64,000 nucleotides of DNA from Fidelibacterota bacterium (GTDB lineage: Bacteria > Fidelibacterota > UBA8477 > JABMPR01). Under the pieces are notes generated by a model. That model had not been told where the DNA came from, ran no database searches, and was given only the letters and a program-made list of their open reading frames with translations. Both the position numbers and the translations under genes were made by a program. The stretch lies in the NCBI GenBank assembly GCA_016784025.1, contig JADHVL010000018.1:7927-71926 (forward strand), read 5' to 3'. Numbering within the stretch: position 1 is the first letter of the stretch; each line of letters starts with the position of its first letter. Shown here piece after piece: positions 864-28,401 of the stretch.

Positions 864-1876
864 TAAATTAGAGCCTCACATAGTTTCTCAAAACCAAGGA
901 GATTCTCCTTCGAGCCCAGTGCAATCAATTTATCATCAGCATTCAGCTTATAGTGGGGATCAGGATTAAAGTTCGCTTCTCCGCTGCGCTGTTCAACTGC
1001 AGTGATGATGATATCGTGGTTTTTCCTAACTTCAAGATCGATGAGTGATTTGCCTTCCGCCCGCGAGTTCGCTTCAATAAGGATAGTTTCCAAAACCAGG
1101 TCAAGATTCCCCCTATTCATGATGAGCTCGATAAAATCAACAACACCAGGTGCCATGGCTTGTCGAGCTAGTTTAGTCCCTGCTGCTTCATAAGGGTTAA
1201 TCACATGGTTGGCACCAGCCCGGGTCATCTTAGGGATAGATGCTGGAACTGTAGCTCTTGTTAAAATTAAGAGATCACTCTTCAAGCTTCGTGCAGATAA
1301 TGTCAAAAACAGATTGTCCTGATCATCTTTCAAAACCCCAATAAGCGTGGTGGCTTTCTCAATTCCTGCATTCAACAGGACCTCATCCTGAGTTGCATCT
1401 CCTTCGATTAGCACAATATCATTCTGAACAAGAGTGGTGATTTTGTCAACATCCTTTTCAATCACAACAAAACTTTTACCGGCGTTTTGAAGCTCCTTGG
1501 CAATGGCTTGTCCCATGCGTCCATATCCACAAAGGATATAGTGATCGTTTAATTTTTTGACTCGTTTCGCCATGCGAAACCTCCTGTAGCGTTTGAGATC
1601 CACTGCTTGCTGTGCGATGTGACCAGCAATAATGAAGAATAAACCGATTCCTGAAAACATAATAAAGATAGTCCAGAGGTGACCCAGATCAGACATCTCC
1701 CAGACCTCTTGAAATCCAACTGTAGCCAGAGTAATAGCCGTCATATAAAAGGCATCAAACCAGCCGACATGCTCAATAATTACATAGCCAGTGGTTCCTA
1801 AAAGGATGATGCCCAGCATGCTCAGGATCAGTTGTTCTATTCTCGTTTCCAGCATCCGTAATAATAGTTTTGGCAA
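863..1876 (-). CDS. Potassium channel with pore domain plus TrkA-N/TrkA-C (RCK) domains
   Basis: Two TM helices around pore DAFYMTAITLATVGFQE; RCK Rossmann motif ILCGYGRMG; true start may be ATG at 1855. Confidence 0.9.
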   Translation of the reverse strand: MPKLLLRMLETRIEQLILSMLGIILLGTTGYVIIEHVGWFDAFYMTAITLATVGFQEVWEMSDLGHLWTIFIMFSGIGLFFIIAGHIAQQAVDLKRYRRFRMAKRVKKLNDHYILCGYGRMGQAIAKELQNAGKSFVVIEKDVDKITTLVQNDIVLIEGDATQDEVLLNAGIEKATTLIGVLKDDQDNLFLTLSARSLKSDLLILTRATVPASIPKMTRAGANHVINPYEAAGTKLARQAMAPGVVDFIELIMNRGNLDLVLETILIEANSRAEGKSLIDLEVRKNHDIIITAVEQRSGEANFNPDPHYKLNADDKLIALGSKENLLGFEKLCEALI

Positions 1877-2032
1877 TGCCTGAAGGCTATCAAAAATAAT
1901 GCCTGGGAATGATGCATTTCACCAGGGAAATTCAGTTGATTACTTCCTACTCTCGGCCTTTCAGACCCAATGCTTTTGGATTACATTGTGAGCCGATGAG
2001 TACCGCACTGAACACTATTAATTACCCCATAA

Positions 2033-3343
<1,311 letters not shown>

Positions 3344-5997: not shown

Positions 5998-6813
5998 ATG
6001 ATTCACATCAAAAAAACGATGTGTGTTTGTGCTGTGGTAATTGCAGTCATTTCACACATATCTCCAGTATTTGGAGCATTCGAGTATGTAGGGCTGGGGT
6101 GGCCAGCTGCAACGGCAAACATCAGGGTCCTGGGACAACACCCCCACCACTTCGTTGTAAATCCGGCTTTAATGGAGAATGGATTTCATCCTCAGATCAG
6201 CCTTTCCTATCAAAACCCCTTTCAGTCTCTTGACCTACAGGCAGGTTCTGTGACCATCCATCACTCAATATGGCAAAGACCGTATATTCATAGCCTGGAA
6301 TATTTCGGGGATGAACATTACTCTGAACTAAAATTCGTCAATGGAACTACCTGGAAACTCGAAAAGGGCTTCAGGATTGGAATGACTATGAATTATCATC
6401 GGCTTTCCATGTCAGGTTTCAATAGTCGGCATGCCATGACACTATCTTTGACTTCGTATGCCCAACTCTCAGATCAAATAAAAGTGGGTTCTGTGGTGGA
6501 ACATGTCATTCAATGGGGGCAAGGCTTAACCCTACCTCAGAATTTTCAAATGGGTGGGCAATATGATATGGGTCCAGCAACAATTGTCGTTGCCCTTGAG
6601 AAAGAATCTGCTCTACCCATGGAAGCCTGCCTCGGGATGTTAATATCTCCAGGTTCCTTCTGGCAGATAGGTGTTGGATACCGAGATTTTAGCGGGATGA
6701 TGTCAGCTGGTTGGCGTATTCGTACTCAAAGAATTTCACTTCACTATGCCTGTGTAGTGCACCCCTATTTGCCTGTATCGCATGGGTTTGGGCTGGAGTT
6801 GATATTGCCATGA
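5998..6813 (+). CDS. Hypothetical outer-membrane protein (PorV-like barrel class)
   Basis: Signal peptide, NPAL motif, beta-strand pattern, C-terminal HPYLPVSHGFG; ATGA-coupled to the next gene. Confidence 0.55.
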   Translation: MIHIKKTMCVCAVVIAVISHISPVFGAFEYVGLGWPAATANIRVLGQHPHHFVVNPALMENGFHPQISLSYQNPFQSLDLQAGSVTIHHSIWQRPYIHSLEYFGDEHYSELKFVNGTTWKLEKGFRIGMTMNYHRLSMSGFNSRHAMTLSLTSYAQLSDQIKVGSVVEHVIQWGQGLTLPQNFQMGGQYDMGPATIVVALEKESALPMEACLGMLISPGSFWQIGVGYRDFSGMMSAGWRIRTQRISLHYACVVHPYLPVSHGFGLELILP

Positions 6814-8558
6814 GACTCATCATTGTATTTCTCATATTCACCGTAAATGCATATGCTCAGGTCGACGATAATCTGGGGAATGACGAGTTGGATGATCCTG
6901 ATGAAAGTCAATATTTAGATCAACTTCTGACTGCGTTATTTCAACCATTTTCAATTGAAACTGTTGATACCAATTCTCTCCTTGAACATGGTTATTCCAG
7001 GGAGGCAATGGAGGTTATTTATAAATGGCGAAAAGGAAATGGGACACTCCTCTCGTTAAAGCGGAGCATTCATGGAAATGATTTAATTCTGCTGAACAAT
7101 GATGTAAAAACGGGTGCTCAGCAAACTCAAATCCACTTACGCCAACGCTTGCATTATTCACCTTCAATGAATGGGTGGCGGATTCTGAATAAGGGCCGCA
7201 TATTAAACAAATGGGGGTCCGTAAATGTTCTAGCCGAACAAGACCCAGGTGAGAATCAATTAACTGACCATTCCATTTTGACGTTGAGCAGCCACTCCAT
7301 CCCCTGGTTTGACCACCTCATTCTCGGTGGATTTCATGTGAACTGGGGTGGCGGATTGATTCTGAATCAACAGGGATCACGCCCAAGTCTAAATCCCAGA
7401 TCACTTCTGCGCACAAAGCAATCAACCATTCGACCTCATTACTCAAGCAGAGAGACGGACTACTTTCAGGGGGCTGCTGGCAGCTTTTCACTAAGCAAAT
7501 TTCATGGAGCCTTCTTTGTCTCCAGTCGCATTATGGAAGGTTTGTGGACCGGCAATCAGTTCAGGGAAGATGCTGACGGAATCCACCCATCTGGAAAGAT
7601 CCTTGAGTCCAGACGGGCTAACGATTATGGATTGGCATTGGAAGCGCTCTTGTCAGGGACACAACTCTATGCATCCACAATCTACACTCCAGAGGCAAAA
7701 TCAGGTCTATCCTATGAGTTGGGGTTCTCGCAGGAGTTGGCTCATTCCCAAAAGATTCAAGTCTACACAAATAGTTTTGATTACGCGAATCACAGGATGA
7801 CTGTTGCCTGGGCATATTTCACCTCACCGCTGCGTGTATCGCTTCAGTACAGGCATTTCATCACAGACGAGGTTTTAGCTCCCGGCTTCACATCAACACT
7901 TCTGGGTACATCTGCCTCAAATGAAAAGGGAATCTCGGTTCGAGCGCAAGTACGACCCACTGGAAAACTGCAAATCCGCTATGCCCTTGATACAGGTAAT
8001 TCAGTCGAGCTCCAAACTGTTGATGATTATAGGACGATTCAGCAGCACAAATTGCAAGTCATCCAGAAACTGATTCAGGGGGTCTTCCAGTTTGATTATA
8101 GTCGGAAAAATGAGCATCCTATTATGGTTGGGGATATCTGGCTTGGGCAATTCTCAACTTATAAAATCAGTAGATGTGCCGTTTCCCTGGTTCACAATTT
8201 TTCACCCCAATTTACGTATCGAGTGAATTTGAAATCAGCTTTTAGCGGCAAAGAATCAGCACTCCTTGTCCAGCAACGTCTGCTTGGTAAAAAGGGCAGA
8301 TGGAAATGGACAATTGGCCATGTGAGATTCACTATTCCCGACTATACCTTGAGATTAAGTGTCTATGAGACCAGTGTGGCAGAAAGCTTTAGCTTTTATA
8401 CCGCTTTTGATGATGGTGATCGATGGTTCGTGTATCTGAAGCAACAGAGTCTCCATTGGTTTGATATGGAAATGAAATTGGTCCAAACTCGTTCCTTTGA
8501 TGACCCCAATATGCCCAAACAACTTGCTATAAGCCTTCAGATGTCCGTTGTCTTATAA
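6810..8558 (+). CDS. Outer-membrane protein resembling the FCB helix-hairpin-helix (ComEA-like) barrel family
   Basis: ATG 6810 overlaps the previous TGA; signal MRLIIVFLIFTVNAYA-Q; EQDPGE, ILGGFHVNWGGGLIL, NEKG, LSVYE motifs; HhH region looks degenerate. Confidence 0.6.
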   Translation: MRLIIVFLIFTVNAYAQVDDNLGNDELDDPDESQYLDQLLTALFQPFSIETVDTNSLLEHGYSREAMEVIYKWRKGNGTLLSLKRSIHGNDLILLNNDVKTGAQQTQIHLRQRLHYSPSMNGWRILNKGRILNKWGSVNVLAEQDPGENQLTDHSILTLSSHSIPWFDHLILGGFHVNWGGGLILNQQGSRPSLNPRSLLRTKQSTIRPHYSSRETDYFQGAAGSFSLSKFHGAFFVSSRIMEGLWTGNQFREDADGIHPSGKILESRRANDYGLALEALLSGTQLYASTIYTPEAKSGLSYELGFSQELAHSQKIQVYTNSFDYANHRMTVAWAYFTSPLRVSLQYRHFITDEVLAPGFTSTLLGTSASNEKGISVRAQVRPTGKLQIRYALDTGNSVELQTVDDYRTIQQHKLQVIQKLIQGVFQFDYSRKNEHPIMVGDIWLGQFSTYKISRCAVSLVHNFSPQFTYRVNLKSAFSGKESALLVQQRLLGKKGRWKWTIGHVRFTIPDYTLRLSVYETSVAESFSFYTAFDDGDRWFVYLKQQSLHWFDMEMKLVQTRSFDDPNMPKQLAISLQMSVVL

Positions 8559-18407: not shown

Positions 18408-18433
18408 TGTAACGACTGAGCAGAAATTGCATC
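18408..18433 (+). promoter_or_regulatory. Possible ECF-type autoregulatory promoter
   Basis: TGTAAC-N16-CATC at the 5' end of the ECF sigma gene. Confidence 0.35.
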
Positions 18434-19038
18434 CAATTAAACGTGAATTGACAACTGAAGAGACGCCGGAGCTCATCCAGGCAGCTCGAGATGGAAACCG
18501 GAAGGTTCAGTCACAACTAGTGACGATGTATTCTTCCCGTATCTATAATCTGGGTCTGCGTATGCTGCGAAATAATGAAGATGCTGAAGATATGCTTCAG
18601 GAAACCTTCATTACAGCATTTCAAAAGATTCACACTTTTAAGGGTAAATCCAGCTTCTATACATGGATATACCGAATTGGTGTGAATATCGCTCTCGGCA
18701 AATTGCGAAAGCAATCCAGGATGCAGATATCCTACTCCATTCAGGAACCGGATTTCGAAAATCTCCATGGTCTGAAAATAGCAGATTGGCCAGATTATAT
18801 CGAAACCAAAGTTTCCGATGAAGAGTTTAAGATTGCTCTCAAAGTCGCTCTGGATGATCTGGACGAAAAGTATCGTTCAGTATTTGTTTTGAGAGATTTG
18901 GAAGAACTGTCCACGGCGAAAACAGCAGAAATCCTGGAGCTTTCTGAAAGCAATGTGAAGGTAAGACTTATGCGGGCCAGACTATTTTTAAGGGACCGTA
19001 TGACTTCCTTTTTAAAACGTGAAGGTTGGTTGGTATAA
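18427..19038 (+). CDS. ECF RNA polymerase sigma-70 factor
   Basis: DAEDMLQETF, SFYTWIYRI (region 2); region 4 HTH ending NVKVRLMRAR; start may be TTG 18448. Confidence 0.95.
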   Translation: MHPIKRELTTEETPELIQAARDGNRKVQSQLVTMYSSRIYNLGLRMLRNNEDAEDMLQETFITAFQKIHTFKGKSSFYTWIYRIGVNIALGKLRKQSRMQISYSIQEPDFENLHGLKIADWPDYIETKVSDEEFKIALKVALDDLDEKYRSVFVLRDLEELSTAKTAEILELSESNVKVRLMRARLFLRDRMTSFLKREGWLV

Positions 19039-19289
19039 TGAAACCGAAACATGATGTAGAGCTGCAAAAGAAAATCTGTCTGGATTTCGGTGCGGATATC
19101 GGCTCTGAATTATGTCAGGAAGTAGGTTTGCTCATGGAGGAATGTCCAGAGTGTAAAGTCTACTATGATACTATGCAACGTTCCGTCAAGCTGTATAAGG
19201 TTGTGGAAGATGAATGTGAGCTTCCTAAGTCTGTATCCGAACGCCTCTTCAAAGTATTAGATCTAGATCAGTTGAAGAAGGACGTTTAA
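19038..19289 (+). CDS. Soluble Cys-rich anti-sigma factor (zf-HC2/ZAS-like)
   Basis: TAATG coupling to the sigma gene; LCQEVGLLMEECPECKVYYDT; no TM segment. Confidence 0.75.
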   Translation: MKPKHDVELQKKICLDFGADIGSELCQEVGLLMEECPECKVYYDTMQRSVKLYKVVEDECELPKSVSERLFKVLDLDQLKKDV

Positions 19290-19293
19290 AAAA

Positions 19294-19548
19294 ATGGCAG
19301 CAACCACAGCACTAACAAAAAAAGTAATTATGTTTACCACCCCAACTTGTTCACATTGTACCACTGCCAAACGGTATTTGAGAGAGAAAGGGATTAAGTT
19401 TAAAGAGATCGATGTCAGCAGAAATCAAAAGGCTGCTCAAGATATGTTAAGAAAAACAGGTCAACAGGGCGTACCACAGCTGTGGATTAATAATCGTCCC
19501 GTCGTTGGCTTTGATAGAAATAGAATCAATAGTTTATTAGGGTTATAG
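19294..19548 (+). CDS. Glutaredoxin (YruB/NrdH-like)
   Basis: TPTCSHC active site, GQQGVPQ, VGFD. Confidence 0.9.
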   Translation: MAATTALTKKVIMFTTPTCSHCTTAKRYLREKGIKFKEIDVSRNQKAAQDMLRKTGQQGVPQLWINNRPVVGFDRNRINSLLGL

Positions 19549-19557
19549 GAGAAAGAA

Positions 19558-19827
19558 ATGAAAATTCAACCTTTAGATGATCGTGTATTAGTTGTTCCTG
19601 CAGGTGAAGAAGAAACAACAGCTTCAGGCATCATTATTCCAGATACTGCCAAAGAAAAACCACGTCGTGGTAGTGTTGCAGCCGTGGGTAATGATGAAGA
19701 ATTGCAGGAATTGATCAAAGAGGGTGATGTTATCCTCTATGGTAAATATGCTGGCGATGAACTCGCATATGATGGGACTGACTATCTCATCCTTAACCGG
19801 AGTGATATTCTGGCCAAACTCAGCTAA
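19558..19827 (+). CDS. groES: Co-chaperonin GroES, without adjacent groEL
   Basis: PLDDRVLV, mobile loop TASGIIIPDTAKEKP, GKYAG, DILA. Confidence 0.95.
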   Translation: MKIQPLDDRVLVVPAGEEETTASGIIIPDTAKEKPRRGSVAAVGNDEELQELIKEGDVILYGKYAGDELAYDGTDYLILNRSDILAKLS

Positions 19828-19849: not shown

Positions 19850-19876
19850 AAAGGGAGCGTAATGCTCCCTTTTTTT
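19850..19876 (+). terminator. Intrinsic terminator after groES
   Basis: AAAGGGAGC-GTAAT-GCTCCCTTT followed by a T run. Confidence 0.9.
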
Positions 19877-19979: not shown

Positions 19980-21329
19980 ATGAGTAAAAAATATGTGATT
20001 ATCGGTGGCGATGCAGCTGGAATGAGTGCTGCCAGCAAAATCAAACGCATGCAACCTGAATCTGAACTTGTGGTCTTTGAGAAGGGCCAGCACATCAGCT
20101 TTGCAGCTTGTGGAATGCCGTATTGGATCAGTGGCGTCATTGAGGATGGTGGTAAATTACAAGTTCTTACTCCTGAGATGGCTCGTGAAAAAAGAGATAT
20201 CGATGTTCGCATTGGACATGAAGTCACAAAAATTGATACTTCGAGTAAAACCATTGTCGTTCAAAATTTGAGTACAGGTGATAATTCTATAGAAAGCTAT
20301 GATGCACTCCTGATTGCAACTGGCGGTCGTGCAGTTGTACCTCCCATACCTGGTGTTGATTCTGTAGGTGTTTTTACACTCCGAAGCTTGGCGGATGGAC
20401 ATCGGATCAAAAATTATATCGCTGATCATGAGATTCAGCATGCCACCATCATCGGAGGCGGCCATATCGGACTGGAAATGGCAGAAGCCTATAGACATCT
20501 CAACATCGATGTGACATTGTTGGTGAGGGGAGACCAGATTGCCCCTTCAATGGATAAAGATCTGTTGGAAAAATTAACTGAGCACGTCATCGAGAAAGGG
20601 GTTGATCTCCAACTCGAAACCAGAGTCAATACCATTGAAAAAATAAATCATGGGCTTCAGGTTCATACTTCTGCTGGTTTGATCAAAACAGACATGGTTC
20701 TTGTTTCTACGGGTGTGAGGCCAAACTCAGAACTGGCAATTGACGCTGGAATCGAAGTTGGTAATAGTGGTGCCATCCTCATTGATGAGCATATGCAAAC
20801 CAGTGTGGAAAATATTTATGCTGGCGGTGATTGCGCTGAGCACAACCATCGTGTGCTGGAAGAAAGTATGTGGATCCCTATGGCTACTTCTGCCAATAAG
20901 GGAGGTCGGATTGCCGGTGAAAATATGGCTGGCGCCCCTACCAGATTTCCTGGGATTCTAGGGACCTCCGCTGCCAAAGTATTCGACTACACTGTTGCTC
21001 AGACTGGACTTACTGAGAAGCAAGCAAGACAAATTGAAAAATTGGGAGCCATAGAAACCACCACCATCACAGGTGGAAGTCGAGCACATTATTACCCCGG
21101 TTCAAAGCCTTTGACAGTAAAGCTTGTAGTCGAAAAAAGTTCTGGCCGACTCCTGGGTGCTCAAATGATAGGCAAGGCAGATGTAGCGAAACGACTGGAT
21201 GTTCTGGCCACAGCCATTACAGCAAAAATGACTGTAGCGGATATTGGCATGTTGGATCTGACCTATGCTCCACCGGTTTCGCCCGTCTATGATCCAATCC
21301 TTGTCGCAGCAAATGTAGCCAATAAGTGA
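19980..21329 (+). CDS. CoA-disulfide reductase / NADH oxidase family flavoprotein
   Basis: IIGGDAAGMSAA, SFAACG (SFxxC redox Cys), GGGHIGLE, C-terminal YAPP; ATG 19980 with GAGGGG RBS. Confidence 0.9.
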   Translation: MSKKYVIIGGDAAGMSAASKIKRMQPESELVVFEKGQHISFAACGMPYWISGVIEDGGKLQVLTPEMAREKRDIDVRIGHEVTKIDTSSKTIVVQNLSTGDNSIESYDALLIATGGRAVVPPIPGVDSVGVFTLRSLADGHRIKNYIADHEIQHATIIGGGHIGLEMAEAYRHLNIDVTLLVRGDQIAPSMDKDLLEKLTEHVIEKGVDLQLETRVNTIEKINHGLQVHTSAGLIKTDMVLVSTGVRPNSELAIDAGIEVGNSGAILIDEHMQTSVENIYAGGDCAEHNHRVLEESMWIPMATSANKGGRIAGENMAGAPTRFPGILGTSAAKVFDYTVAQTGLTEKQARQIEKLGAIETTTITGGSRAHYYPGSKPLTVKLVVEKSSGRLLGAQMIGKADVAKRLDVLATAITAKMTVADIGMLDLTYAPPVSPVYDPILVAANVANK

Positions 21330-21342
21330 GAAGAATATCAAG

Positions 21343-21362
21343 GCGAGGATTCGAATCCTCGC
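21343..21362. repeat. Perfect 20-bp palindrome (REP-like)
   Basis: GCGAGGATTC/GAATCCTCGC, intergenic, no T tract. Confidence 0.6.
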
Positions 21363-21431
21363 ATGGTAGTTCCCACGGTTTGGAGTCATATCTCCCAAGT
21401 CCCTACTCGATTGGACTAATCAAAAGGATGA

Positions 21432-21644
21432 GTGCAGATGATACATAAGGAAATGCTAATTGAGGACCTGGTTCAGGAATATCCCAAACTAATTGGTCCA
21501 CTGAAGATGGAAGGTATTGTCTGTCTGGCATGTGGTGAGGCTCTCTGGGGAACATTAGAAGCACAAGCTCTCGAGAAGGGTCTCAATAATATTGATGACA
21601 TCGTGGAGAAAATGAACGCGTTGATTTTGGAAGAAGCTTTATAG
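21432..21644 (+). CDS. DUF1858 family small protein
   Basis: MLIEDLVQEYP, GIVCLACGE, TLE motifs; start GTG 21432 or ATG 21438. Confidence 0.7.
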   Translation: MQMIHKEMLIEDLVQEYPKLIGPLKMEGIVCLACGEALWGTLEAQALEKGLNNIDDIVEKMNALILEEAL

Positions 21645-21724
21645 AAATTGATTTGTTGCCCGAGGAGACCATATTAGGTGGTGTTTGGGCGACTGTTAGA
21701 GAATAAAATTTAAGGTAACAGATT

Positions 21725-22147
21725 ATGCCAGAAGTTAAGATTCAACAGGTAAAAGGTGGAACCTTTGCCGCCAGGGGTACTTCAAACCATTGGACTATGA
21801 TAGACGTTTCAAAAAAGGTAGGTGGCCAGGAAGCTGCAAGCGGTCCCATGGAGATGGTCTTATTTGGTCTCGGGGGATGTACAGGAATAGATGTTGAAAC
21901 GATGTTGAAGAAAATGAAGGTTCCTTTGGAAAATTTTGAAATTGATATTCACGCAGAACGTGCTGAGGAGCATCCAAAAATCTTCACCCATATTGATATG
22001 ACCTATCATTTCTATGGCAAGGACCTTCCCTTAAAAAAACTGGAGCGAGCCGTTAAACTTTCTAAAGATACATACTGCTCTGTGAGCGCCATGTTGGCTG
22101 CCACTGTTGAAATAACTGCAAAAGTCGAGAATCATAACACCGCATGA
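21725..22147 (+). CDS. OsmC/YhfA family protein
   Basis: GPMEMVLFGLGGCTGID and SKDTYCSVS, the two conserved Cys. Confidence 0.9.
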   Translation: MPEVKIQQVKGGTFAARGTSNHWTMIDVSKKVGGQEAASGPMEMVLFGLGGCTGIDVETMLKKMKVPLENFEIDIHAERAEEHPKIFTHIDMTYHFYGKDLPLKKLERAVKLSKDTYCSVSAMLAATVEITAKVENHNTA

Positions 22148-22545
22148 TCTATCGCCTCATAGCCTACTCCCTTATTTTGCTGGGAACTGGTGGCACCATT
22201 TATATAGGTGTCGAAGGCATTTACGGTGACCACTATGATATTCCTGCCTTGAGCTATGAGTCGTTTAGCCGACAATATTCTGACTCCAGTAATTATATAT
22301 TGATTGATGTCCGTACAGAATCTGAAGTTGCAGCGCAACCAGCGCCCTGGTCAAATACCATTCAGATACCCCTGCTTTCCCTGGAGGATCGGTGCATGGA
22401 GTTAAATAAATACAAAGATCAACCCATGATGGTTTTGTGCCCGACAGGCAACCGTTCCAGACAAGGTGCTCGTGTACTAAGATTGGCTGGTTTTGATGCC
22501 TCCTACATGGAAAAGGGCATGTTTAACAAAGAAAGAATTTCATAA
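22144..22545 (+). CDS. Membrane-anchored rhodanese-like sulfurtransferase
   Basis: N-terminal TM, LIDVRTESE, active loop CPTGNRS. Confidence 0.85.
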   Translation: MIYRLIAYSLILLGTGGTIYIGVEGIYGDHYDIPALSYESFSRQYSDSSNYILIDVRTESEVAAQPAPWSNTIQIPLLSLEDRCMELNKYKDQPMMVLCPTGNRSRQGARVLRLAGFDASYMEKGMFNKERIS

Positions 22546-22766
22546 TGAGTAAAAGATACATTAAAATGTTATCAGGTTTGGCAGTTGGAGCTATCTTCGG
22601 ATTCATCTATTACTATTATATTGGCTGCGCTTCTGGTAGCTGTGCGATCACATCAAATCCGTACATTAGTACTGCCTATGGAGCCATGATGGGTCTTGTA
22701 TTTATGTGGCCAGCCAAAGAGAAGGATGCTAAAACAGATGATCGGGAAAACACACAAGTCGTCTAA
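22545..22766 (+). CDS. DUF6132-like small two-TM membrane protein with CX4C loop
   Basis: GFIYYYYIGCASGSCAITSNP..YGAMMG. Confidence 0.75.
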   Translation: MSKRYIKMLSGLAVGAIFGFIYYYYIGCASGSCAITSNPYISTAYGAMMGLVFMWPAKEKDAKTDDRENTQVV

Positions 22767-23454
22767 AATAATTGCGCTGGCTTTATGCCTGGTGCCGGCT
22801 GTTTTTGGACAAATCAATAATTTTGAATTTGTGCAACACGATAGCGCTTACGTCGGAAGTGAGGAGTTTGTAGTACTCCATGGTGAAATAATCAGTCTTG
22901 CCACCTCATCTCAATCAATTTCTGTCACCAGAGTTACGCATGAAATGGATACCTTGTGGACAAACTCTTTTTGTGTCGGGCCAGCTTGCTTACCTCCCTT
23001 CCTGGATAACTATACCTTTGATCTCGCTGCTTCCGATACCGCCGAGTTCACTCTTGACACCTTTCCAAATGGTGAAGAGGGGATAGGAATCTGGACCATG
23101 TTTGCAGTGGACTCCTCAACCATGGAAGTGGATTCAGTTAATATCAGATTGGAGTTTGTTGCTGTCTCTATTGATGGGTCTTTCGAAAGACCAAACTCAT
23201 TTGAGCTCTCTCATATTTACCCCAATCCAACCAATGCTTCAATCAATTTCGACCTGGATCTTAAAAGTACAGGAGATTATTCGATTATTTTGTATGCTCT
23301 GGATGGACGGGAAATTATGATCAGAAATTATCAATTGAATTCTGGCAAGAATCATCTTCAATGGAATATGCAAGGATTGCCATCAGGCAACTACATCATT
23401 AGCGCGACTGGTGCAGGAGAGACGATCTCCAGACAAGTGAGTGTGATCAAATGA
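22738..23454 (+). CDS. Secreted protein with T9SS type A (Por) C-terminal sorting-like domain and CX4C motif
   Basis: Signal ..PAVFG-Q; FCVGPACLPP; C-terminal IYPNP..LYALDGR..LPSGNYII..VIK. Confidence 0.8.
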   Translation: MIGKTHKSSKIIALALCLVPAVFGQINNFEFVQHDSAYVGSEEFVVLHGEIISLATSSQSISVTRVTHEMDTLWTNSFCVGPACLPPFLDNYTFDLAASDTAEFTLDTFPNGEEGIGIWTMFAVDSSTMEVDSVNIRLEFVAVSIDGSFERPNSFELSHIYPNPTNASINFDLDLKSTGDYSIILYALDGREIMIRNYQLNSGKNHLQWNMQGLPSGNYIISATGAGETISRQVSVIK

Positions 23455-23942
23455 TGCGATTACTTCCCCTTCTCCTGATTGTTGCCATCTCTTTTGGCCA
23501 GGAGAAAAACCTGCCACAGGTCAACCTAAAGGACATGAAGAATAAAACCCATAGTCTGAACAAGTTGGTTGAAGACCAGGTAACTCTCATCAATTTTTGG
23601 GCTACTTATTGTGTCCCCTGCCGAAAAGAAATGAAGCATTTAAATCGGATTAACGAGACTTATGCTGATCAAAATGTTCAGGTCATAGGTATTTCTATTG
23701 ATGATTCTCGTACTGTGGGCCGGGTTAAGTCTATGGTTAAGTCACAGAAACTTAAATATACCATTCTCCTTGATACTGAACAAAAATTATACAAGAATTT
23801 CAATACCACCGCCATGCCCTTCTCAATCCTGGTTGATGCACAGGGTAAAATTCTCTGGGAGCATACGGGTTATCTCCCAGGTGATGAAGCCCAAATGGAA
23901 TCTGAAATCAAGAAAGCTTTGGCGGCTCAGAAAAAAAGTTAA
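23451..23942 (+). CDS. TlpA/ResA-family thiol-disulfide oxidoreductase
   Basis: Signal peptide; INFWATYCVPCRKE; cis-Pro loop AMP. Confidence 0.92.
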   Translation: MMRLLPLLLIVAISFGQEKNLPQVNLKDMKNKTHSLNKLVEDQVTLINFWATYCVPCRKEMKHLNRINETYADQNVQVIGISIDDSRTVGRVKSMVKSQKLKYTILLDTEQKLYKNFNTTAMPFSILVDAQGKILWEHTGYLPGDEAQMESEIKKALAAQKKS

Positions 23943-23951
23943 TTTCCCCCC

Positions 23952-25649
23952 TTGTCCTTATTTTTCAGAACACTCATCCTATTAGCCATTCCATTAGGTC
24001 TGATTGCTGAAGGTGTGTCCTGGAATCTTGGTCTCAAGTCCAATCTTGGCCGTGGTGAACAGGTTGGAACAGATTACAATTACTTCGAAAATTTTATAAG
24101 TGGATCCATTGAGGTCGGCCAATGGTATCTGGATTTATCTGTAGAATCAAGTCAACCTCCAGAATATGGTTTCGAGTACCAGGGTATCGATCGCTTTTTT
24201 CTCAGCTATATTGGAAATGCACGCTCTCTGGAGATAGGTGATATCTCAGCCGTTTTTGGTCGAGGTTTGGCCCTGAATCTTGATGAAAACCAGGCCATTG
24301 ATTTTGATAATGAAATCATGGGTCTCAGATATTCATCTGTATTTATGGAAAATCATGAATTTGATTTGCTGGCAGGGTTTAAAAAGGAATATAGATTCTA
24401 TTCGCCTAGTTCAGATCTGCGTGAGCCTGATGGAATGGCTGGCTATGAACTGGCCGGGGCAGAGGCAACTTTCAATAGTGAAAGTGGTGTTTGGTCTTTT
24501 ATTCCATATCTGATAGCCAGCCGCATGCAGTCCGATTTCGTTTGGCAGGAATTGGATGCAGATAAGGGCGCGGTTGTTACAGATACAGTGACTCAAAACA
24601 TGAATGCCATTCAGGCTGGATGGGGGCAATCCATTTATGGAGAAAATTGGGATTTGTATCTAGAGTACAATAAGACCTGGAAAGCTTTCGATTATCCAGT
24701 ATCCAATCAGAGTATCCAACACCTGGAGAATGGGCAAAGTTTGATCAGCGATGATCCAAATTATGGTCAGGAAGGCCAGGCTTTCAATTTGCAGCTGAAT
24801 TGGTTCCCCGAATGGTTTACCACATTGTTTGAGTATAAACGCTATCTCAACGGTCCTGAAACTTCCTCTCAAAAACGTAATCCCATGCTTCTCGCCACAA
24901 AACCACTGCCATGGCAAATGGGACCTACTGGGATCAGAGAACATGATATTAGCCTTCTGGGGAATGTGACCCATCCTGTGGATTATGGCGATGAATTGGG
25001 CTGGAATCTGGAAATGAGAAAAACACTTTCAGATTCATGGTCAATGGTAATTAATGGAGCGCAGACTTCACAGTCCTCACCAGATGGAGCTCCTGGAATC
25101 CTACCCACACAGGATTTGGACCGGAATCCCTGGCAGGAATATTATGCAGAGTTCGAATATTCTGGTTCGCGTTTTTATCAGAGATTGTTGATAGCCTACA
25201 CCAGATCGGTTCTCAGTGGACAATCCGCTGCTGAGATTATGGAACATTATACCCTTGTTCCAGCCTATCTATCCTGGCACCCCAATGAAAATCTGGTTTT
25301 ATCCACAGTTGTTGAATTGCAGACCTCCAAAGTCTATACTGAATTGTATGCTGGAGATGTCCTTGAGGGTCATAAGTTTCAGAGCGGGCACTTTATTGTC
25401 AGTGCTGACTATGAGCATAATTATTCTGCAGCAATTATATGGGATACAAGTAATGATCCAAGTCTCATGACCAACGACGAAGAAATTCAACATTGGGTGA
25501 GTGGTGAAGTATCTGTGAAACCCATGGATGGACTGTGGTTACGGGCTTCTTATGGCAAGGAAAAGGGTGGTGTGCGATGTACAGGTGGAGTTTGTCGAGT
25601 CCTGAATCCCTTTGAGGGTTTCCGTATGGCCCTGGAGTGGCGACTATGA
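23952..25649 (+). CDS. DUF6029-like outer-membrane barrel with C-terminal CX4C
   Basis: Signal peptide; GDI..FGRGLAL; C-terminal GGVRCTGGVCRVLNPFEG..EWRL; these are the only two Cys. Confidence 0.7.
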   Translation: MSLFFRTLILLAIPLGLIAEGVSWNLGLKSNLGRGEQVGTDYNYFENFISGSIEVGQWYLDLSVESSQPPEYGFEYQGIDRFFLSYIGNARSLEIGDISAVFGRGLALNLDENQAIDFDNEIMGLRYSSVFMENHEFDLLAGFKKEYRFYSPSSDLREPDGMAGYELAGAEATFNSESGVWSFIPYLIASRMQSDFVWQELDADKGAVVTDTVTQNMNAIQAGWGQSIYGENWDLYLEYNKTWKAFDYPVSNQSIQHLENGQSLISDDPNYGQEGQAFNLQLNWFPEWFTTLFEYKRYLNGPETSSQKRNPMLLATKPLPWQMGPTGIREHDISLLGNVTHPVDYGDELGWNLEMRKTLSDSWSMVINGAQTSQSSPDGAPGILPTQDLDRNPWQEYYAEFEYSGSRFYQRLLIAYTRSVLSGQSAAEIMEHYTLVPAYLSWHPNENLVLSTVVELQTSKVYTELYAGDVLEGHKFQSGHFIVSADYEHNYSAAIIWDTSNDPSLMTNDEEIQHWVSGEVSVKPMDGLWLRASYGKEKGGVRCTGGVCRVLNPFEGFRMALEWRL

Positions 25650-26902
25650 GGAAGTATTTATTTCTACTGCCCTTCGTCCTATTCATCACTTCTTGTGACT
25701 GGAAGCCTGAACCAATTGAAGTGATTCCTTATGACTCTTTCAGAAAAATCGATATTGTGGTTGGGATCAAAACAATCATTGAAGTTGAAGGTAATGATTT
25801 TACGGTAGACAGTTCCGTAGACACATCGATTGTCGAAATAATTTCTAATGATTCCGGTCGTATCGAAATTATTGGTAGAGTTCCCGGGCAAACGAAATTG
25901 AGTTACAATTACTACATTTCAAGTGAACTAGAAGGTGAGAACGATCTAGCAGCTAGAATGGTTCTAATCTTTGAAGTTACAAATGGATTCCCATTAAGAG
26001 TGAATGTAGAGGATAGCGTAAAGGTAAATCTGGATGCCTTTGTTGATTCAATCCAAAGGGTAAGCCATGATTCAGTTGATATTAGGTTCTCTTCTGGACT
26101 AGTTAGTGCACATAATACAGTTACTTATGACATGGATTCTCTAGAATTGGTTGTTCATGGGGATACACCTGGCCGAGAAGGTCTGATCGTAACATTCTTC
26201 CAACAATCTGATACTCTAGGTGAACCGCTAATTTTCGATATTGCTACTCGTATTCATAAGGTGGTCCTGGCAGAATTTTATACGAATACGGGTTGTGTAA
26301 ATTGTCCCGAAGCGAATCATTATCTCGACAATATTTCAGCTGAGTTTATTGATGATTTCACTTTGGTTCGATATCATGTTAATTGGACCGACCCATTCGA
26401 CCCTATGAACCTTTATAATCCAGGTGATGTTGAAAGCCGTCGAGCATACTATAATATTTTTGCTGCTCCCGGATTCGTTCTGGAGGGAACCCTGATAACC
26501 TCCCTCGATGAGGACGACTGGTCAGGACGGGTGTTCAACGCCTCCCAGGGATTGACTCCTGTCTATATTGGTCCCATCGACGTATTGGAGAGTGTGGATA
26601 GCCTGCATCTTGAATTTGAATTGAACAGCTTTTCATCATCGTTGACCGACATAACAATATGGTCGCTTGTTATGGAAGACAGTATTGAATATGCAGGATC
26701 AAACGGCGAGACACTACATATGGATGTGATGCGGGATATGACTTCCAACCCTATAAGTGTATTGATTGGTCTCAGCACCATTCAGCACAGTTTAAAGAAA
26801 CCAGATGATTACGGGACTGCAGGTCCCATGAACTTATTGGTTTTTGTACAAGCTGATTCAGATAAATCTGTATTGCAATCTCGCAAACAAAACCTCTATT
26901 AA
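25646..26902 (+). CDS. Omp28-related outer-membrane lipoprotein with thioredoxin-like CXXC
   Basis: ATG 25646; lipobox FITSC; VVLAEFYTNTGCVNCP, YHVNW, H..VMRD, LLVFVQ..VLQ. Confidence 0.8.
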   Translation: MRKYLFLLPFVLFITSCDWKPEPIEVIPYDSFRKIDIVVGIKTIIEVEGNDFTVDSSVDTSIVEIISNDSGRIEIIGRVPGQTKLSYNYYISSELEGENDLAARMVLIFEVTNGFPLRVNVEDSVKVNLDAFVDSIQRVSHDSVDIRFSSGLVSAHNTVTYDMDSLELVVHGDTPGREGLIVTFFQQSDTLGEPLIFDIATRIHKVVLAEFYTNTGCVNCPEANHYLDNISAEFIDDFTLVRYHVNWTDPFDPMNLYNPGDVESRRAYYNIFAAPGFVLEGTLITSLDEDDWSGRVFNASQGLTPVYIGPIDVLESVDSLHLEFELNSFSSSLTDITIWSLVMEDSIEYAGSNGETLHMDVMRDMTSNPISVLIGLSTIQHSLKKPDDYGTAGPMNLLVFVQADSDKSVLQSRKQNLY

Positions 26903-26906
26903 CAGC

Positions 26907-27350
26907 GTGGCTGAATTACATCCCTTCTTTGTTCACTTCCCCATAGCCATTCTGGTGGTGGCGGCTGTCTTTGATGTATATGGTGCATCTAGAGGTCTGC
27001 AGCAGCATACGCAGACTGCCTTTATCCTGCAATTAATGGCTGGTGTCTCTGCCGTCTTCGCAGCCATCAGTGGCAATCTGGCTGAATCCCTGATTGTCGA
27101 TCACAGCCTTCTCCACCAAGGGGTGATGGAGGCATTCGATAAACATACTTCTATGGGAAATGCCATGGTATGGCTCATTATTCTGGTAGCCGTTGGACGC
27201 ACCTTTGCAGTCCTGGAGAAGAAGGAGTGGGCCCTAAGAGGCTGGGTGATTCCCGTTGTGAGTGTGACCGTGGCCCTGCTTGTGATCGTCACAGGATTAT
27301 TGGGCGGGGATTTGAGCGCATCAATCCTGACTTTTTACATCAATTCTTAA
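26907..27350 (+). CDS. DUF2231 family membrane protein
   Basis: LHPFFVHFPIA, SG, H, TG..GGDL motifs; four TM segments. Confidence 0.8.
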   Translation: MAELHPFFVHFPIAILVVAAVFDVYGASRGLQQHTQTAFILQLMAGVSAVFAAISGNLAESLIVDHSLLHQGVMEAFDKHTSMGNAMVWLIILVAVGRTFAVLEKKEWALRGWVIPVVSVTVALLVIVTGLLGGDLSASILTFYINS

Positions 27351-27396: not shown

Positions 27397-28401
27397 CTAG
27401 CTTTGTGTAAAACGCTTTCCGTTCATGGTTTTCAGGAAGGCAGCAATTTTAGCAGCTTCTTCGTCAGAAATCTGCTGCATCAACTGCATATCACCCATCA
27501 TCTGGATGGTTTTTTCAAGACTTTCTACTCCGCCATCGTGGAAGTAAGGACCGGTTAACTCAATGTTTCTCAAGGCGGGGACTTTAAACATAAACTTATC
27601 TTGTTCTAACCCGGTTACCTCAAATCGACCTTCATCATTCAGATTATGGTATGGTTTAATGAGACCATTTTTCTGGTACATATTTGCCCCCATCATCGAT
27701 CCCATGTGGCAGGTTACACATGCTTTGCCCAGAAAAAGATCCAGACCTTCAACTTCAGCTTTTGTGATGGCTTTCAGATCGCCCTCTAAATATGAATCAA
27801 AGCGATCATGCGTTACCAGTGTGCGCTCAAATGCAGCCAGGGCTTCTGTAATATTCTCATAGTTAATGCTGTTCTCACCGAAGGCTTCATTAAATAGTTC
27901 TGTGTACTCTGGAATAGCTTTGATTATGGCAACAGCAGTAGCGGAATCAGCAATAGCCATTTCAGCAGGATTTAAAATGGGTCCACCAGCTTGTTCATTC
28001 AGGTCAGCAGCTCGTCCGTCCCAGAATTGAGTAAAATGAAAACCGGCGTTAAAAACAGTCGGGGAATTCCTGGGACCGGGAATGCCATTGGTACCTTCTG
28101 ATGTGGGTTTGTTATCAACTCCTGCTGTAACTAGATCGTGACAGGTATTGCAGGACATATCTCCAGTATTTGATAGTGCAGTTTCAAAATATAGCTTTTC
28201 CCCAAGTTTGATCCGGGTCTCTGTGTCATTTTCAGAACCTGGCATCATGTCAGGGACCACCGCGAACATCGGTTTTACTTTAGCTAGTATTTCTTGCTGA
28301 TACGTCAAATCCTCTGGTGGTTGTTTATCTGCTTTTCCACCACACTGAATCAACATCAATATCATCAAACTCATAACGATGAACAGGACACCTTTCTGCA
28401 T
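27397..28401 (-). CDS. Diheme cytochrome c peroxidase (CCP/MauG family), probable lipoprotein
   Basis: Two CXXCH (CNTCH, CVTCH), RNSPTV, QFWDGRA, FKVPALRNI..PYFHDG. Confidence 0.93.
   Translation of the reverse strand: MQKGVLFIVMSLMILMLIQCGGKADKQPPEDLTYQQEILAKVKPMFAVVPDMMPGSENDTETRIKLGEKLYFETALSNTGDMSCNTCHDLVTAGVDNKPTSEGTNGIPGPRNSPTVFNAGFHFTQFWDGRAADLNEQAGGPILNPAEMAIADSATAVAIIKAIPEYTELFNEAFGENSINYENITEALAAFERTLVTHDRFDSYLEGDLKAITKAEVEGLDLFLGKACVTCHMGSMMGANMYQKNGLIKPYHNLNDEGRFEVTGLEQDKFMFKVPALRNIELTGPYFHDGGVESLEKTIQMMGDMQLMQQISDEEAAKIAAFLKTMNGKRFTQS

What the first reader, a model, noticed from the sequence alone, without database searches (positions are those of the whole stretch)
22545..26902. 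Candidate trans-envelope disulfide/persulfide relay: five consecutive CX4C and CXXC proteins
Seen: five overlapping or closely spaced genes each carry one Cys pair: two-TM DUF6132-like protein (CASGSC), T9SS-CTD protein (CVGPAC), TlpA (CVPC), barrel-like DUF6029 protein (CTGGVC, its only Cys, near the C-terminus) and Omp28-like lipoprotein (CVNC). Established: TlpA proteins are periplasmic reductases, and CX4C pairs act as shuttle disulfides in Ero1/Erv-type relays. Inference: the predicted locations (inner membrane, periplasm, outer-membrane barrel, surface lipoprotein, secreted cargo) form a chain that could move reducing equivalents or sulfane sulfur across the outer membrane. I know of no described system of this kind.
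Basis: partly seen in the sequence, partly recalled or inferred. Interest (0 to 1): 0.85.

Follow-up and report, generated by a model that had tools for sequence, protein, structure and literature searches.

The report
Conserved outer-membrane cysteine-pair redox module
Four of the five genes form a widely conserved but unstudied module: a periplasmic thiol reductase, a large outer-membrane barrel with an invariant cysteine hairpin, and two cell-surface cysteine-pair proteins, which may carry thiol chemistry to the cell surface.

Summary
All five Cys pairs exist at the stated places and are conserved in homologues.

The five genes are not one unit.
- Rhodanese and DUF6132 belong to a thiol/sulfur-stress cluster. 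It starts with an ECF sigma factor and a four-Cys anti-sigma protein.
- Cargo–TlpA–DUF6029–Omp28-like is a separate four-gene block. One congener lacks the block and keeps the rest.

TlpA sits directly upstream of DUF6029 in 41 of 41 assessable, mostly Marinimicrobia, loci and in 20 of 20 Cloacimonadota loci. The barrel's CX4C is present in 138 of 138 representatives that reach the C-terminus.

AlphaFold2 gives a barrel of about 24 strands, closest to usher pores. By strand parity and indel pattern, the Cys hairpin lies in the last extracellular loop.

The Omp28-like lipoprotein has a canonical thioredoxin fold closest to HBP35. In sister lineages its counterpart is a UxxC selenoprotein. A barrel–lipoprotein complex gets weak support only.

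A thiol relay across the outer membrane is neither shown nor excluded. A dedicated export pore is the main rival.

This scan has noted the same module on other DNA at least nine times. I found no paper that describes it.

The parts
18427..19038 (+). ECF-type sigma factor, head of the flanking stress cluster
   Evidence: Sigma70_r2 3.4e-17 and r4_2 5.1e-15. Syntenic in relatives.
19026..19289 (+). Small soluble Cys-rich protein overlapping the sigma gene; putative thiol-sensing anti-sigma factor (inferred)
   Evidence: No Pfam or NCBIfam match. C18 and C30 are kept in 12/12, C40 and C43 in 11/12. The same gene pair sits next to rhodanese-DUF6132 in a distant family.
19294..19827 (+). Glutaredoxin (19294-19548) and GroES (19558-19827), followed by a terminator-like hairpin at 19850-19872
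   Evidence: Glutaredoxin 6.5e-20 and Cpn10 8.5e-28. Hairpin of 10 pairs plus a T run.
19980..22147 (+). CoA-disulfide-reductase-like flavoprotein (19980-21329), DUF1858 redox-disulfide domain protein (21432-21644), OsmC (21725-22147)
   Evidence: NF007123 scores 467.5 bits against a cut-off of 458. DUF1858 domain by TIGR03980, 1.4e-8. OsmC 3.3e-19.
22144..22545 (+). Membrane-anchored rhodanese, probably periplasmic; active-site Cys99
   Evidence: Rhodanese 2.1e-7. Cys99 kept in 15/15. The homologue in a distant family carries a lipoprotein signal.
22545..22766 (+). DUF6132 two-TM protein with CX4C in the short loop between its two TM helices; partner of the rhodanese, not of the core module
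   Evidence: PF19628 32.9 bits. Cys 16/16. Separable from the core module.
22738..23454 (+). Small T9SS cargo: signal peptide, about 135-aa N-domain with the motif W-x4-C-x4-C, and a C-terminal sorting domain. Its architecture and gene neighbours resemble those of PorA in P. gingivalis (homology untested)
   Evidence: Por_Secre_tail 7e-10. W74, C79 and C84 invariant in 15/15. This domain is fused behind a Trx domain in Cloacimonadota cargos.
23451..23942 (+). Periplasmic TlpA/ResA-like thioredoxin-fold protein, CVPC
   Evidence: Redoxin 2.1e-24. Best solved relative is 2m72_A, 5.1e-23. Directly upstream of DUF6029 in 41/41 and 20/20 loci.
23952..25649 (+). DUF6029 outer-membrane barrel of about 24 strands; invariant CX4C beta-hairpin (C543/C548) before the last strand
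   Evidence: PF19494 53.3 bits. AF2 pLDDT 89.4, pTM 0.83. PapC Z 17.3 and FimD Z 16.2. Topology from strand parity and indels.
25637..26902 (+). Lipoprotein with two Ig-like domains, a thioredoxin fold with CVNC at the canonical site, and a beta-sandwich (HBP35-like, distantly Omp28-like)
   Evidence: AF2 pLDDT 85.6. Foldseek HBP35 5y1a 1.4e-9. Profile against PDB: 2axo 5.8e-6, 1fo5 1.1e-5. Lipobox Cys kept in 23/23.
26844..27350 (+). DUF2231 membrane protein (start uncertain); belongs to the flanking cluster
   Evidence: PF09990 6.5e-12. It directly follows DUF6132 in the congener that lacks the four-gene block.

Best explanation
The region holds two separable units.

(1) A thiol/sulfur-stress cluster. 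It comprises an ECF sigma factor, a four-Cys anti-sigma protein, glutaredoxin, GroES, a CoA-disulfide-reductase-like enzyme, DUF1858, OsmC, a periplasmic rhodanese, DUF6132 and DUF2231.

(2) A four-gene outer-membrane thiol-redox module set inside that cluster.

In the module, TlpA is a periplasmic reductant, presumably charged by the DsbD or CcdA-like proteins encoded elsewhere. The DUF6029 protein is an outer-membrane barrel of about 24 strands. It has no plug domain, and a strictly conserved Cys-Cys hairpin sits at its outer mouth. The lipoprotein (Trx fold, CXXC) and the T9SS-tagged CX4C protein sit on the cell surface.

My preferred mechanism: the barrel docks the surface thioredoxin-fold protein and lets periplasmic reducing power reach surface Cys (or Sec) active sites. 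This may run through TlpA entering the wide lumen, or through the hairpin disulfide. It would be a thiol counterpart of the MtrA-MtrB-MtrC arrangement.

Shown: the genes, their folds, Cys conservation and gene linkage. Inferred: localisation, the direction of electron flow, and any passage across the outer membrane.
For: Gene linkage:
- TlpA lies directly upstream of DUF6029 in 41/41 assessable loci; 5 more start inside the barrel gene. These loci are mostly Marinimicrobia plus five Cloacimonadota.
- The same holds in 20/20 Cloacimonadota loci. I fetched 20 of the 35 genomes that were positive among 41 sampled.
- A CXXC lipoprotein of this kind is adjacent in 27 loci of the first set and in 19/20 Cloacimonadota loci, all 19 with CXXC.
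- Elsewhere the downstream genes are T9SS-tagged proteins, some with a WCxPC thioredoxin domain.

Catalytic cysteines:
- In four loci the downstream partner has an in-frame TGA at the first Cys position.
- One of these, read with TGA=U, scores 408.9 bits against the 200-bit cut-off of NF045500, 'Omp28-related selenoprotein'.

Barrel:
- The Cys pair is present in 138/138 representatives that reach the C-terminus.
- The hairpin loop has no indel in 32 homologues, although other outer loops vary by up to 125 residues.

Folds:
- Barrel: pLDDT 89.4. MtrB scores Z 15.0 over 428 residues. PapC scores Z 17.3, rmsd 5.0, over 364 residues.
- Lipoprotein: the CXXC sits at the N-terminus of the first Trx helix. 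The best structural match is HBP35. HBP35 has Cys-dependent insulin-reductase activity and is surface-located (PMC2907840, passages read).

Fusion: Cloacimonadota cargos join the Trx domain and the W..C-x5-C domain in one protein.

Electron source: DsbD_TM matches elsewhere in the genome.
Against: - No coordinates were available, so no Cys-Cys distance was measured.
- The hairpin is inferred to lie on the extracellular side, about a membrane's thickness from periplasmic TlpA. The barrel has no second Cys pair.
- All linkage evidence is genomic. The loci are kin and were found with queries built from this family.
- PorA's four cysteines were reported as not needed for its signalling role in P. 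gingivalis (PMC12152298, passage read).
- Conserved Cys pairs in loops of outer-membrane proteins are often only structural.
Confidence: 0.45

Rival explanations
1. Dedicated export or assembly pore. The DUF6029 barrel moves or anchors the neighbouring surface proteins (the Trx-fold lipoprotein and the small PorA-like cargo). TlpA only keeps their cysteines reduced or correctly paired in the periplasm before export. The barrel's hairpin disulfide is a structural latch.
For: - The best fold matches are the 24-strand usher translocation pores: PapC Z 17.3 and FimD Z 16.2.
- No plug domain was predicted.
- By locus tags porA (PG2172) lies next to Omp28 (PG2173), an uncharacterised protein (PG2174) and a thioredoxin-domain protein (PG2175) (earlier scan notes).
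- The barrel gene overlaps the lipoprotein gene by 13 bases.
Against: - It does not explain why the barrel's own Cys pair is its most conserved feature (138/138).
- It does not explain why the partners are always thioredoxin-fold or selenocysteine proteins.
- The genome has a normal T9SS translocon for the tagged cargo: SprA/Sov, 591 bits.
- I did not verify that PG2174 is a DUF6029 protein.
Confidence: 0.3
2. Sulfane-sulfur (persulfide) relay, as the first reader also proposed. Rhodanese and DUF6132 hand sulfur to TlpA, the barrel and the surface proteins, moving it across the envelope.
For: - In this clade the genes from OsmC to DUF2231 are overlapping or closely spaced.
- A rhodanese with conserved active-site Cys99 (15/15) and a CoA-disulfide-reductase-like enzyme lie upstream.
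Against: - The units separate. One congener has CoADR-DUF1858-OsmC-rhodanese-DUF6132-DUF2231 without the four-gene block. A distant family has sigma/anti-sigma-rhodanese-DUF6132 on a different contig from TlpA-DUF6029.
- DUF6132 is absent within 2.5 kb in 16 of 37 assessable loci.
- My DUF6132 and rhodanese profiles were searched against the 20 Cloacimonadota loci with the others and matched in none of them.
Confidence: 0.08
3. Polysaccharide export porin. DUF6029 is a Wzi-like barrel for polymer secretion, and its redox neighbours are coincidental.
For: PMC9603273 (passages read) reports HHpred similarity between Wzi-barrel-only homologues and DUF6029, and suggests a polysaccharide secretion role.
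Against: - TlpA adjacency in 61 of 61 assessable loci across two phyla cannot be coincidence.
- No Wza/OPX or glycosyltransferase gene lies in the cluster.
- The model has about 24 strands, whereas that paper treats Wzi among 18-stranded barrels.
Confidence: 0.05
4. Metal handling. The Cys pairs, together with the barrel's invariant His341 and Glu348 loop, bind a thiophilic metal such as copper. TlpA acts as it does for Sco/CoxB-type copper sites.
For: - Invariant H341, E348, C543 and C548 in the barrel.
- The copper transporter OprC is the top Foldseek match, but at generic barrel level only: TM about 0.46.
Against: - No metal-binding domain, chaperone or efflux gene lies in the module.
- Selenocysteine UxxC partners point to redox catalysis.
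- The OprC match is no better than those to other 22-strand receptors.
Confidence: 0.05

Closest known systems
DsbD/CcdA to TlpA / ResA / CcmG periplasmic reducing pathways
   Same: TlpA here is a signal-peptide-bearing Redoxin-family protein with CVPC. The genome encodes DsbD_TM proteins.
   Different: Known pathways end at periplasmic substrates such as apocytochromes, Sco and CoxB. Here TlpA is locked to an outer-membrane barrel and to surface-sorted Trx-fold proteins. The ResA and TlpA NCBIfam models score below their cut-offs: 88 against 170, and 67.6 against 230.
MtrA-MtrB-MtrC porin-cytochrome conduit of Shewanella (PDB 6r2q)
   Same: The layout matches: a periplasmic redox protein, a large outer-membrane barrel and a surface redox lipoprotein. 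The barrel model aligns to MtrB with Z 15.0 over 428 residues.
   Different: There are no haem motifs; the redox groups would be Cys pairs. Fold likeness is at the level of any large barrel. This is a functional analogy only, drawn in part from my own knowledge of Mtr.
HBP35 of Porphyromonas gingivalis (PDB 5y1a)
   Same: It is the best structural match of the lipoprotein's Trx-plus-sandwich part: E 1.4e-9, rmsd 3.5 over 249 columns. It is surface-located and has Cys-dependent thioredoxin activity (PMC2907840).
   Different: HBP35 is a T9SS cargo, not a lipoprotein. The window protein adds two N-terminal Ig-like domains. Sequence identity is 13%.
P. gingivalis PG2175 - PG2174 - Omp28 (PG2173) - PorA (PG2172)
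   Same: The parts list is the same. The window's TlpA has its best solved relative in 2m72_A, 5.1e-23; earlier scan notes assign that entry to PG2175. Papers call PG2175 a thioredoxin-domain protein, PG2173 Omp28 and PG2174 uncharacterised. PorA is a small CTD protein of similar size with a close Cys pair, Cys92/Cys96.
   Different: I could not fetch that genome. Whether PG2174 is a DUF6029 protein, and the operon structure, rest on locus tags and unchecked scan notes. No sequence match of the cargo's N-domain to any solved chain was found.
Chaperone-usher translocation pores PapC / FimD
   Same: These give the best fold matches. They are 24-strand barrels: Z 17.3 and 16.2 over 364-369 residues.
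   Different: There is no plug, no N- or C-terminal usher domain and no chaperone or pilin genes. Identity is 8-12%.

Membership tests
DUF6029 (PF19494) | Match to the Pfam model above the gathering score | tested here: met
   53.3 bits against a cut-off of 27; residues 65-562 on profile positions 76-535 of 538.
DUF6029 (PF19494) | C-terminal motif YG..KGG..C-x4-C...F.G before the last strand (my own reading of the family) | tested here: met
   32/32, 20/20 and 138/138 representatives that reach the C-terminus.
TlpA/ResA-like Redoxin (PF08534) | Thioredoxin fold with CXXC, exported | tested here: met
   Redoxin 86.5 bits against 26.6. CVPC kept in 22/22, with one further row gapped at those columns. 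An N-terminal hydrophobic signal is visible in the sequence.
ResA (NF002854) / TlpA (NF047696) as named by NCBIfam | Score above the curated cut-off | tested here: not met
   88 bits against 170, and 67.6 bits against 230.
Omp28 family lipoprotein (NF033782 / PF11551) | Score above the curated cut-off | tested here: not met
   NF033782 scores 28 bits against 150. No PF11551 match. The genome's two true PF11551 proteins lie on another contig.
Omp28-related selenoprotein (NF045500) | UxxC active site and a score of at least 200 bits | tested here: not met
   The window protein scores 18.9 bits and has Cys, not Sec. A sister-lineage partner, the L070 gene read with TGA=U, scores 408.9 bits.
Thioredoxin fold | Strand, then CXXC at the N-terminus of helix 1, and a conserved Pro before strand 3 | tested here: met
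   Strand 210-216, C220/C223 and helix 223-236. P278 is invariant. The profile aligns its CXXC with that of the M. jannaschii thioredoxin 1fo5, 1.1e-5.
T9SS type A cargo | C-terminal sorting domain, and a T9SS present in the genome | tested here: met
   Por_Secre_tail 39.5 bits against 27. SprA/Sov match of 591 bits in the genome.
PorA (P. gingivalis PGN_0123) | Ig-like, FimH-like N-domain homologous to PorA-N | tested here: inconclusive
   A profile of the cargo against all PDB sequences matched only CTDs.
DUF6132 (PF19628) | Match above the gathering score | tested here: met
   32.9 bits against 23.2.
Ero1/Erv-type CX4C shuttle oxidases | FAD-binding helical domain next to the shuttle Cys pair | tested here: not met
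   No flavin or Erv/Ero domain in any of the five proteins.
MtrCAB-type porin-cytochrome conduit | Multihaem CXXCH cytochromes inside and outside the barrel | tested here: not met
   No cytochrome domain in the module. The only haem protein nearby is a di-haem peroxidase on the other strand.

The most novel reading that the evidence does not exclude
The module is the first thiol- or selenol-based electron conduit across a bacterial outer membrane. DsbD/CcdA charges TlpA. TlpA works through the roughly 24-strand DUF6029 barrel, whose invariant Cys hairpin is a relay or gate. Surface thioredoxin-fold (seleno)proteins are thereby kept reduced for catalysis outside the cell. This would be a cysteine counterpart of MtrCAB, present across the FCB group including Porphyromonas gingivalis.
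Probability: 0.3. Interest if true: 0.9.

Novelty: new variant of a known kind. Interest (0 to 1): 0.7.

Why it matters
Thioredoxin-fold proteins on the cell surface, such as HBP35, Omp28-type lipoproteins and their selenocysteine forms, have no known electron source outside the cell. A family of large outer-membrane barrels has no assigned function; it holds 2042 clusters at 50% identity with E up to 0.001.

This module links the two, and it is kept in at least two phyla. Either answer would be new. One answer is a thiol relay across the outer membrane. The other is a dedicated export pore, which would explain how PorA reaches the surface without the T9SS.

In this clade the module sits inside a cluster headed by an ECF sigma factor and a four-Cys anti-sigma protein. 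That suggests, by inference only, that surface thiol chemistry is tuned to thiol or sulfur stress in oxygen-minimum-zone Marinimicrobia.

Tried and rejected
- Barrel-lipoprotein complex: complex prediction on the barrel (residues 20-565, alignment A2) with the lipoprotein (21-421, A3) gave the verdict 'weak support'. The ipSAE was 0.58, 0.59 and 0.61 (median 0.59) against a best control of 0.00. The runs agree in at least 76% of contacts and the partner's pLDDT is at least 85. In the tool's calibration the pass mark was reached by 58 of 80 solved complexes and by 2 of 110 mismatched pairs. Scores of 0.60 or lower, however, came from only 7 of those 80 solved complexes and from both of the mismatched pairs that passed. 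No interface was returned. I do not count this for or against binding.
- DUF6132 fusions: a search among longer proteins found none. This is weak evidence.
- PDB sequence searches: the barrel profile matched nothing. The lipoprotein alone gave nothing meaningful. The cargo profile matched only CTDs.
- ESM Atlas search with the cargo N-domain: unnamed clusters only, best score 0.91, no structure held.
- Foldseek with the barrel: generic large barrels, TM about 0.45. VIA-align ranked usher pores first.
- Shared ECF-type promoter: I looked for one motif upstream of both the sigma gene and the CoADR-like gene. My loose motif matched only the CoADR-like gene's upstream region, plus one unrelated site on the other strand, and 25 sites genome-wide. 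Dropped.
- The search for homologous proteins with the barrel profile returned 73 proteins, all PF19494; those that carry a source's organism name are Marinimicrobia. It did not widen the taxonomic range.
- Bacteroidota genomes, including P. gingivalis, could not be fetched with the tools left. The wider claims of the earlier scan notes stay unchecked.
- Model coordinates are not exposed. The hairpin's position in or above the lumen could not be measured.

Full report
**What is in the window**

Between 18427 and 27350 all genes lie on the + strand. In order they are:
- an ECF sigma factor;
- an 87-aa Cys-rich protein whose gene overlaps the sigma gene;
- glutaredoxin and GroES;
- a CoA-disulfide-reductase-like flavoprotein (NF007123, 467.5 bits against a cut-off of 458);
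- a DUF1858 redox-disulfide domain protein;
- OsmC;
- a membrane-anchored rhodanese;
- a DUF6132 protein;
- a T9SS cargo protein;
- a TlpA-like redoxin;
- a DUF6029 protein;
- a lipoprotein;
- a DUF2231 membrane protein.

A strong terminator-like hairpin follows GroES at 19850-19872. From OsmC to DUF2231 the genes overlap or lie at most 9 bases apart. Record titles of close relatives show that the organism is a Marinimicrobia (Marinisomatota) genome assembled from a metagenome.

**The observation**

There are two corrections.
- The cargo gene starts at the ATG at 22738.
- 'Omp28-like' rests on a weak NCBIfam match only: 28 bits against a cut-off of 150, with no Pfam Omp28 match.

The barrel has exactly two cysteines, C543 and C548.

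Conservation in relatives:

| Protein | Cys pair kept |
|---|---|
| DUF6132 | 16/16 |
| TlpA | 22/22 (one further row gapped) |
| DUF6029 | 19/19 |
| Lipoprotein CXXC | 16/17 |
| Cargo | 15/15, two phyla, spacing 3-5 |

In a profile search of 1.84 billion cluster representatives the barrel family has 2042 members at E up to 0.001. Of the best 150, 138 reach the C-terminus and all 138 carry the CX4C. The other 12 are fragments that end earlier.

**The five genes are two units**

- DUF6132 is single-copy. It was found in 26 of 28 other genomes of the window's order.
- In the other families of the phylum it was found in 2 of 12 genomes, one of these below the Pfam cut-off.
- It was not found in four genomes, all at least 93% complete, that have DUF6029.
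- Within 2.5 kb upstream of the barrel it is present in 21 loci and absent in 16; 9 loci are not assessable.
- One congener (83% complete) has CoADR-DUF1858-OsmC-rhodanese-DUF6132-DUF2231-peroxidase. The block cargo-TlpA-barrel-lipoprotein is simply missing there.
- A distant family has sigma/anti-sigma-rhodanese-DUF6132 on a different contig from its TlpA-DUF6029 pair. Its rhodanese carries a lipoprotein signal.

So rhodanese and DUF6132 go with the sigma/anti-sigma pair. The anti-sigma candidate keeps four cysteines: C18 and C30 in 12/12, C40 and C43 in 11/12. By analogy with thiol-switch anti-sigma factors, which I recall rather than tested, this suggests a thiol- or sulfur-stress regulon.

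The genome has DsbD_TM proteins elsewhere. DUF6132 is therefore not needed as the inner-membrane link.

**The core module is strongly conserved**

I built profiles from relatives and scanned 46 loci. These came from a pattern search seeded with the barrel alignment.
- TlpA lies directly upstream of the barrel in 41 of 41 assessable loci.
- Directly downstream lies the CXXC lipoprotein in 27 loci and a T9SS-tagged protein in 11. My profiles found nothing there in 3 loci, and 5 are not assessable.
- One of the 3 'none' loci in fact holds a selenoprotein form that the stop-delimited ORF caller had split.

In Cloacimonadota the Pfam family was found in 35 of 41 sampled genomes. I fetched 20 of these.
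- All 20 have TlpA-DUF6029.
- 19 have a CXXC lipoprotein just upstream of TlpA; all 19 carry CXXC.
- All 20 barrels have the CX4C.
- 18 have a T9SS-tagged protein directly downstream and the other two an Omp28-like protein.

These loci are kin and were found with family-derived queries. The counts show linkage, not independent events.

**Partners elsewhere point to catalysis**

In other Marinimicrobia clades the downstream T9SS cargos include proteins with a WCxPC thioredoxin domain.

In four loci the partner has an in-frame TGA exactly where the first Cys of the CXXC should be. Read with TGA=U, one scores 408.9 bits against the 200-bit cut-off of NCBIfam's 'Omp28-related selenoprotein'. Another scores 183 bits and ends in a T9SS sorting domain. 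I did not check for SECIS elements or Sec machinery.

Many Cloacimonadota cargos of about 446 aa carry a WCxxC thioredoxin domain near residue 40, a W..C-x5-C domain near residue 290, and a CTD. A profile of the window cargo's N-domain alone matches that second domain, with E 1.1e-5 and 3.7e-5 in a small database. This fusion ties the two surface partners together.

**Structures**

Barrel:
- The model is confident: pLDDT 89.4, pTM 0.83.
- It has a signal helix, about 24 long strands and no plug domain.
- It has one 48-residue loop with short helices. That loop holds the family's second most conserved stretch, with H341 and E348 invariant.
- C543 and C548 face each other in a two-residue-turn hairpin (strands 540-544 and 547-551). 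The hairpin lies between strand 23 and the last strand.

I counted strands from the periplasmic N-terminus. On that count, indels of 3 or more residues fall inside six of the 12 outward connections, up to 125 residues in 17 sequences. Only one falls in the 11 inward turns, and that in a single sequence. This places the hairpin in the last extracellular connection, which itself has no indel in 32 homologues.

Without relying on Foldseek, the best fold matches are these:

| Match | Z | Aligned residues |
|---|---|---|
| PapC usher pore (rmsd 5.0) | 17.3 | 364 |
| FimD usher pore | 16.2 | 369 |
| MtrB | 15.0 | 428 |

Foldseek gave generic barrels.

Lipoprotein:
- The model has pLDDT 85.6.
- It shows two Ig-like domains and a thioredoxin fold with CVNC at the N-terminus of the first helix.
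- A terminal beta-sandwich follows.
- Its best structural match is HBP35 of P. gingivalis: E 1.4e-9, rmsd 3.5 over 249 columns.
- Its profile aligns the CXXC with that of a solved archaeal thioredoxin.

TlpA's best solved relative is 2m72_A, 5.1e-23.

**Literature**

- 'DUF6029' occurs in two held papers. I read passages of the one listed, which suggests a polysaccharide-porin role from HHpred similarity to Wzi.
- 'DUF6132' occurs in one unrelated paper.
- HBP35 has Cys-dependent insulin-reductase activity and a surface form (PMC2907840, passages).
- PorA is a 246-aa CTD protein with an Ig-like N-domain. [quoted passage not shown]
- PorA's four cysteines were reported as not needed for its signalling (PMC12152298, passage).
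- Proteome papers name PG2175 a thioredoxin-domain protein, PG2173 Omp28 and PG_2174 uncharacterised.
- No paper found in these searches describes the module.
- Supplements were closed.

**Earlier notes of this scan**

At least nine other windows carry notes on a TlpA-DUF6029-Omp28 (and PorA) module. They gave me four leads: 2m72 and PG2175, HBP35, selenoprotein forms, and PorA. I re-tested the fold, selenoprotein and Cloacimonadota points. I could not re-test the Bacteroidota and P. gingivalis operon claims.

**Reading**

The module is real, and every part carries a redox-type Cys or Sec pair. My preferred mechanism, at 0.45, is supply of periplasmic reducing power to surface thioredoxin-fold proteins at or through the barrel. 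This resembles the Mtr layout.

The main rival, at 0.3, is a dedicated export pore with TlpA as a folding aid. It is favoured by the usher-like fold and by PorA's unexplained route to the surface.

The persulfide version that includes rhodanese and DUF6132 is unlikely, because the units separate. The two leading readings predict opposite results for surface exposure in a barrel mutant.

Noticed in passing
window 18427-19289; L120 (G033:C38) 2080-2908: An ECF sigma factor is paired with a small soluble protein that keeps four cysteines (C18, C30, C40, C43) and has no Pfam or NCBIfam match. It looks like a thiol-switch anti-sigma factor of an undescribed type. In a distant family the pair sits directly next to rhodanese-DUF6132.
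   Followed up: partly
L116 (G004:C10) 1-3165: A congener has CoADR-DUF1858-OsmC-rhodanese-DUF6132-DUF2231-peroxidase without the cargo-TlpA-barrel-lipoprotein block. This is a clean presence/absence polymorphism of the four-gene module.
   Followed up: partly
L067 9823-11562; L069 about 6720-7876; L070 9813-10958; L071 about 7040-7890: Omp28-related proteins directly downstream of DUF6029 have an in-frame TGA at the first active-site position (UxxC). SECIS elements and Sec machinery were not checked.
   Followed up: partly
L098, L100, L106-L108, L110, L112, L114 (Cloacimonadota), gene downstream of DUF6029: T9SS cargos of about 446 aa fuse an N-terminal WCxxC thioredoxin domain with a W..C-x5-C domain related to the window's small cargo.
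   Followed up: partly
L072 8900-10411; L073 11472-12680: These T9SS cargos next to DUF6029 in other Marinimicrobia carry many tandem Cys-rich repeats, with 26-34 cysteines and 5-9 CxxC motifs. Their neighbours have thrombospondin-type-3-like and dockerin-like repeats. Function unknown.
   Followed up: no
G000:C46:15278-21570 (outside the window): Two large proteins (831 and 836 aa) carry a true Pfam Omp28 domain (68.2 and 61.3 bits). They are separate from the module's lipoprotein.
   Followed up: no
window 27397-28401 (- strand): A di-haem cytochrome c peroxidase lies convergent to the cluster and is syntenic in most congeners. It fits an oxidative-stress setting.
   Followed up: no
window 24900-25000 (barrel residues about 322-350): The barrel's long helix-bearing loop holds its second most conserved stretch, with invariant P325, H341, E348 and G350. 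This may be a functional site together with the Cys hairpin.
   Followed up: no
L035 (G002:C18) 839-1171: Short fragments similar to the CoADR-like gene lie about 2 kb upstream of the intact copy. They look like remnants of a duplicated or broken gene.
   Followed up: no
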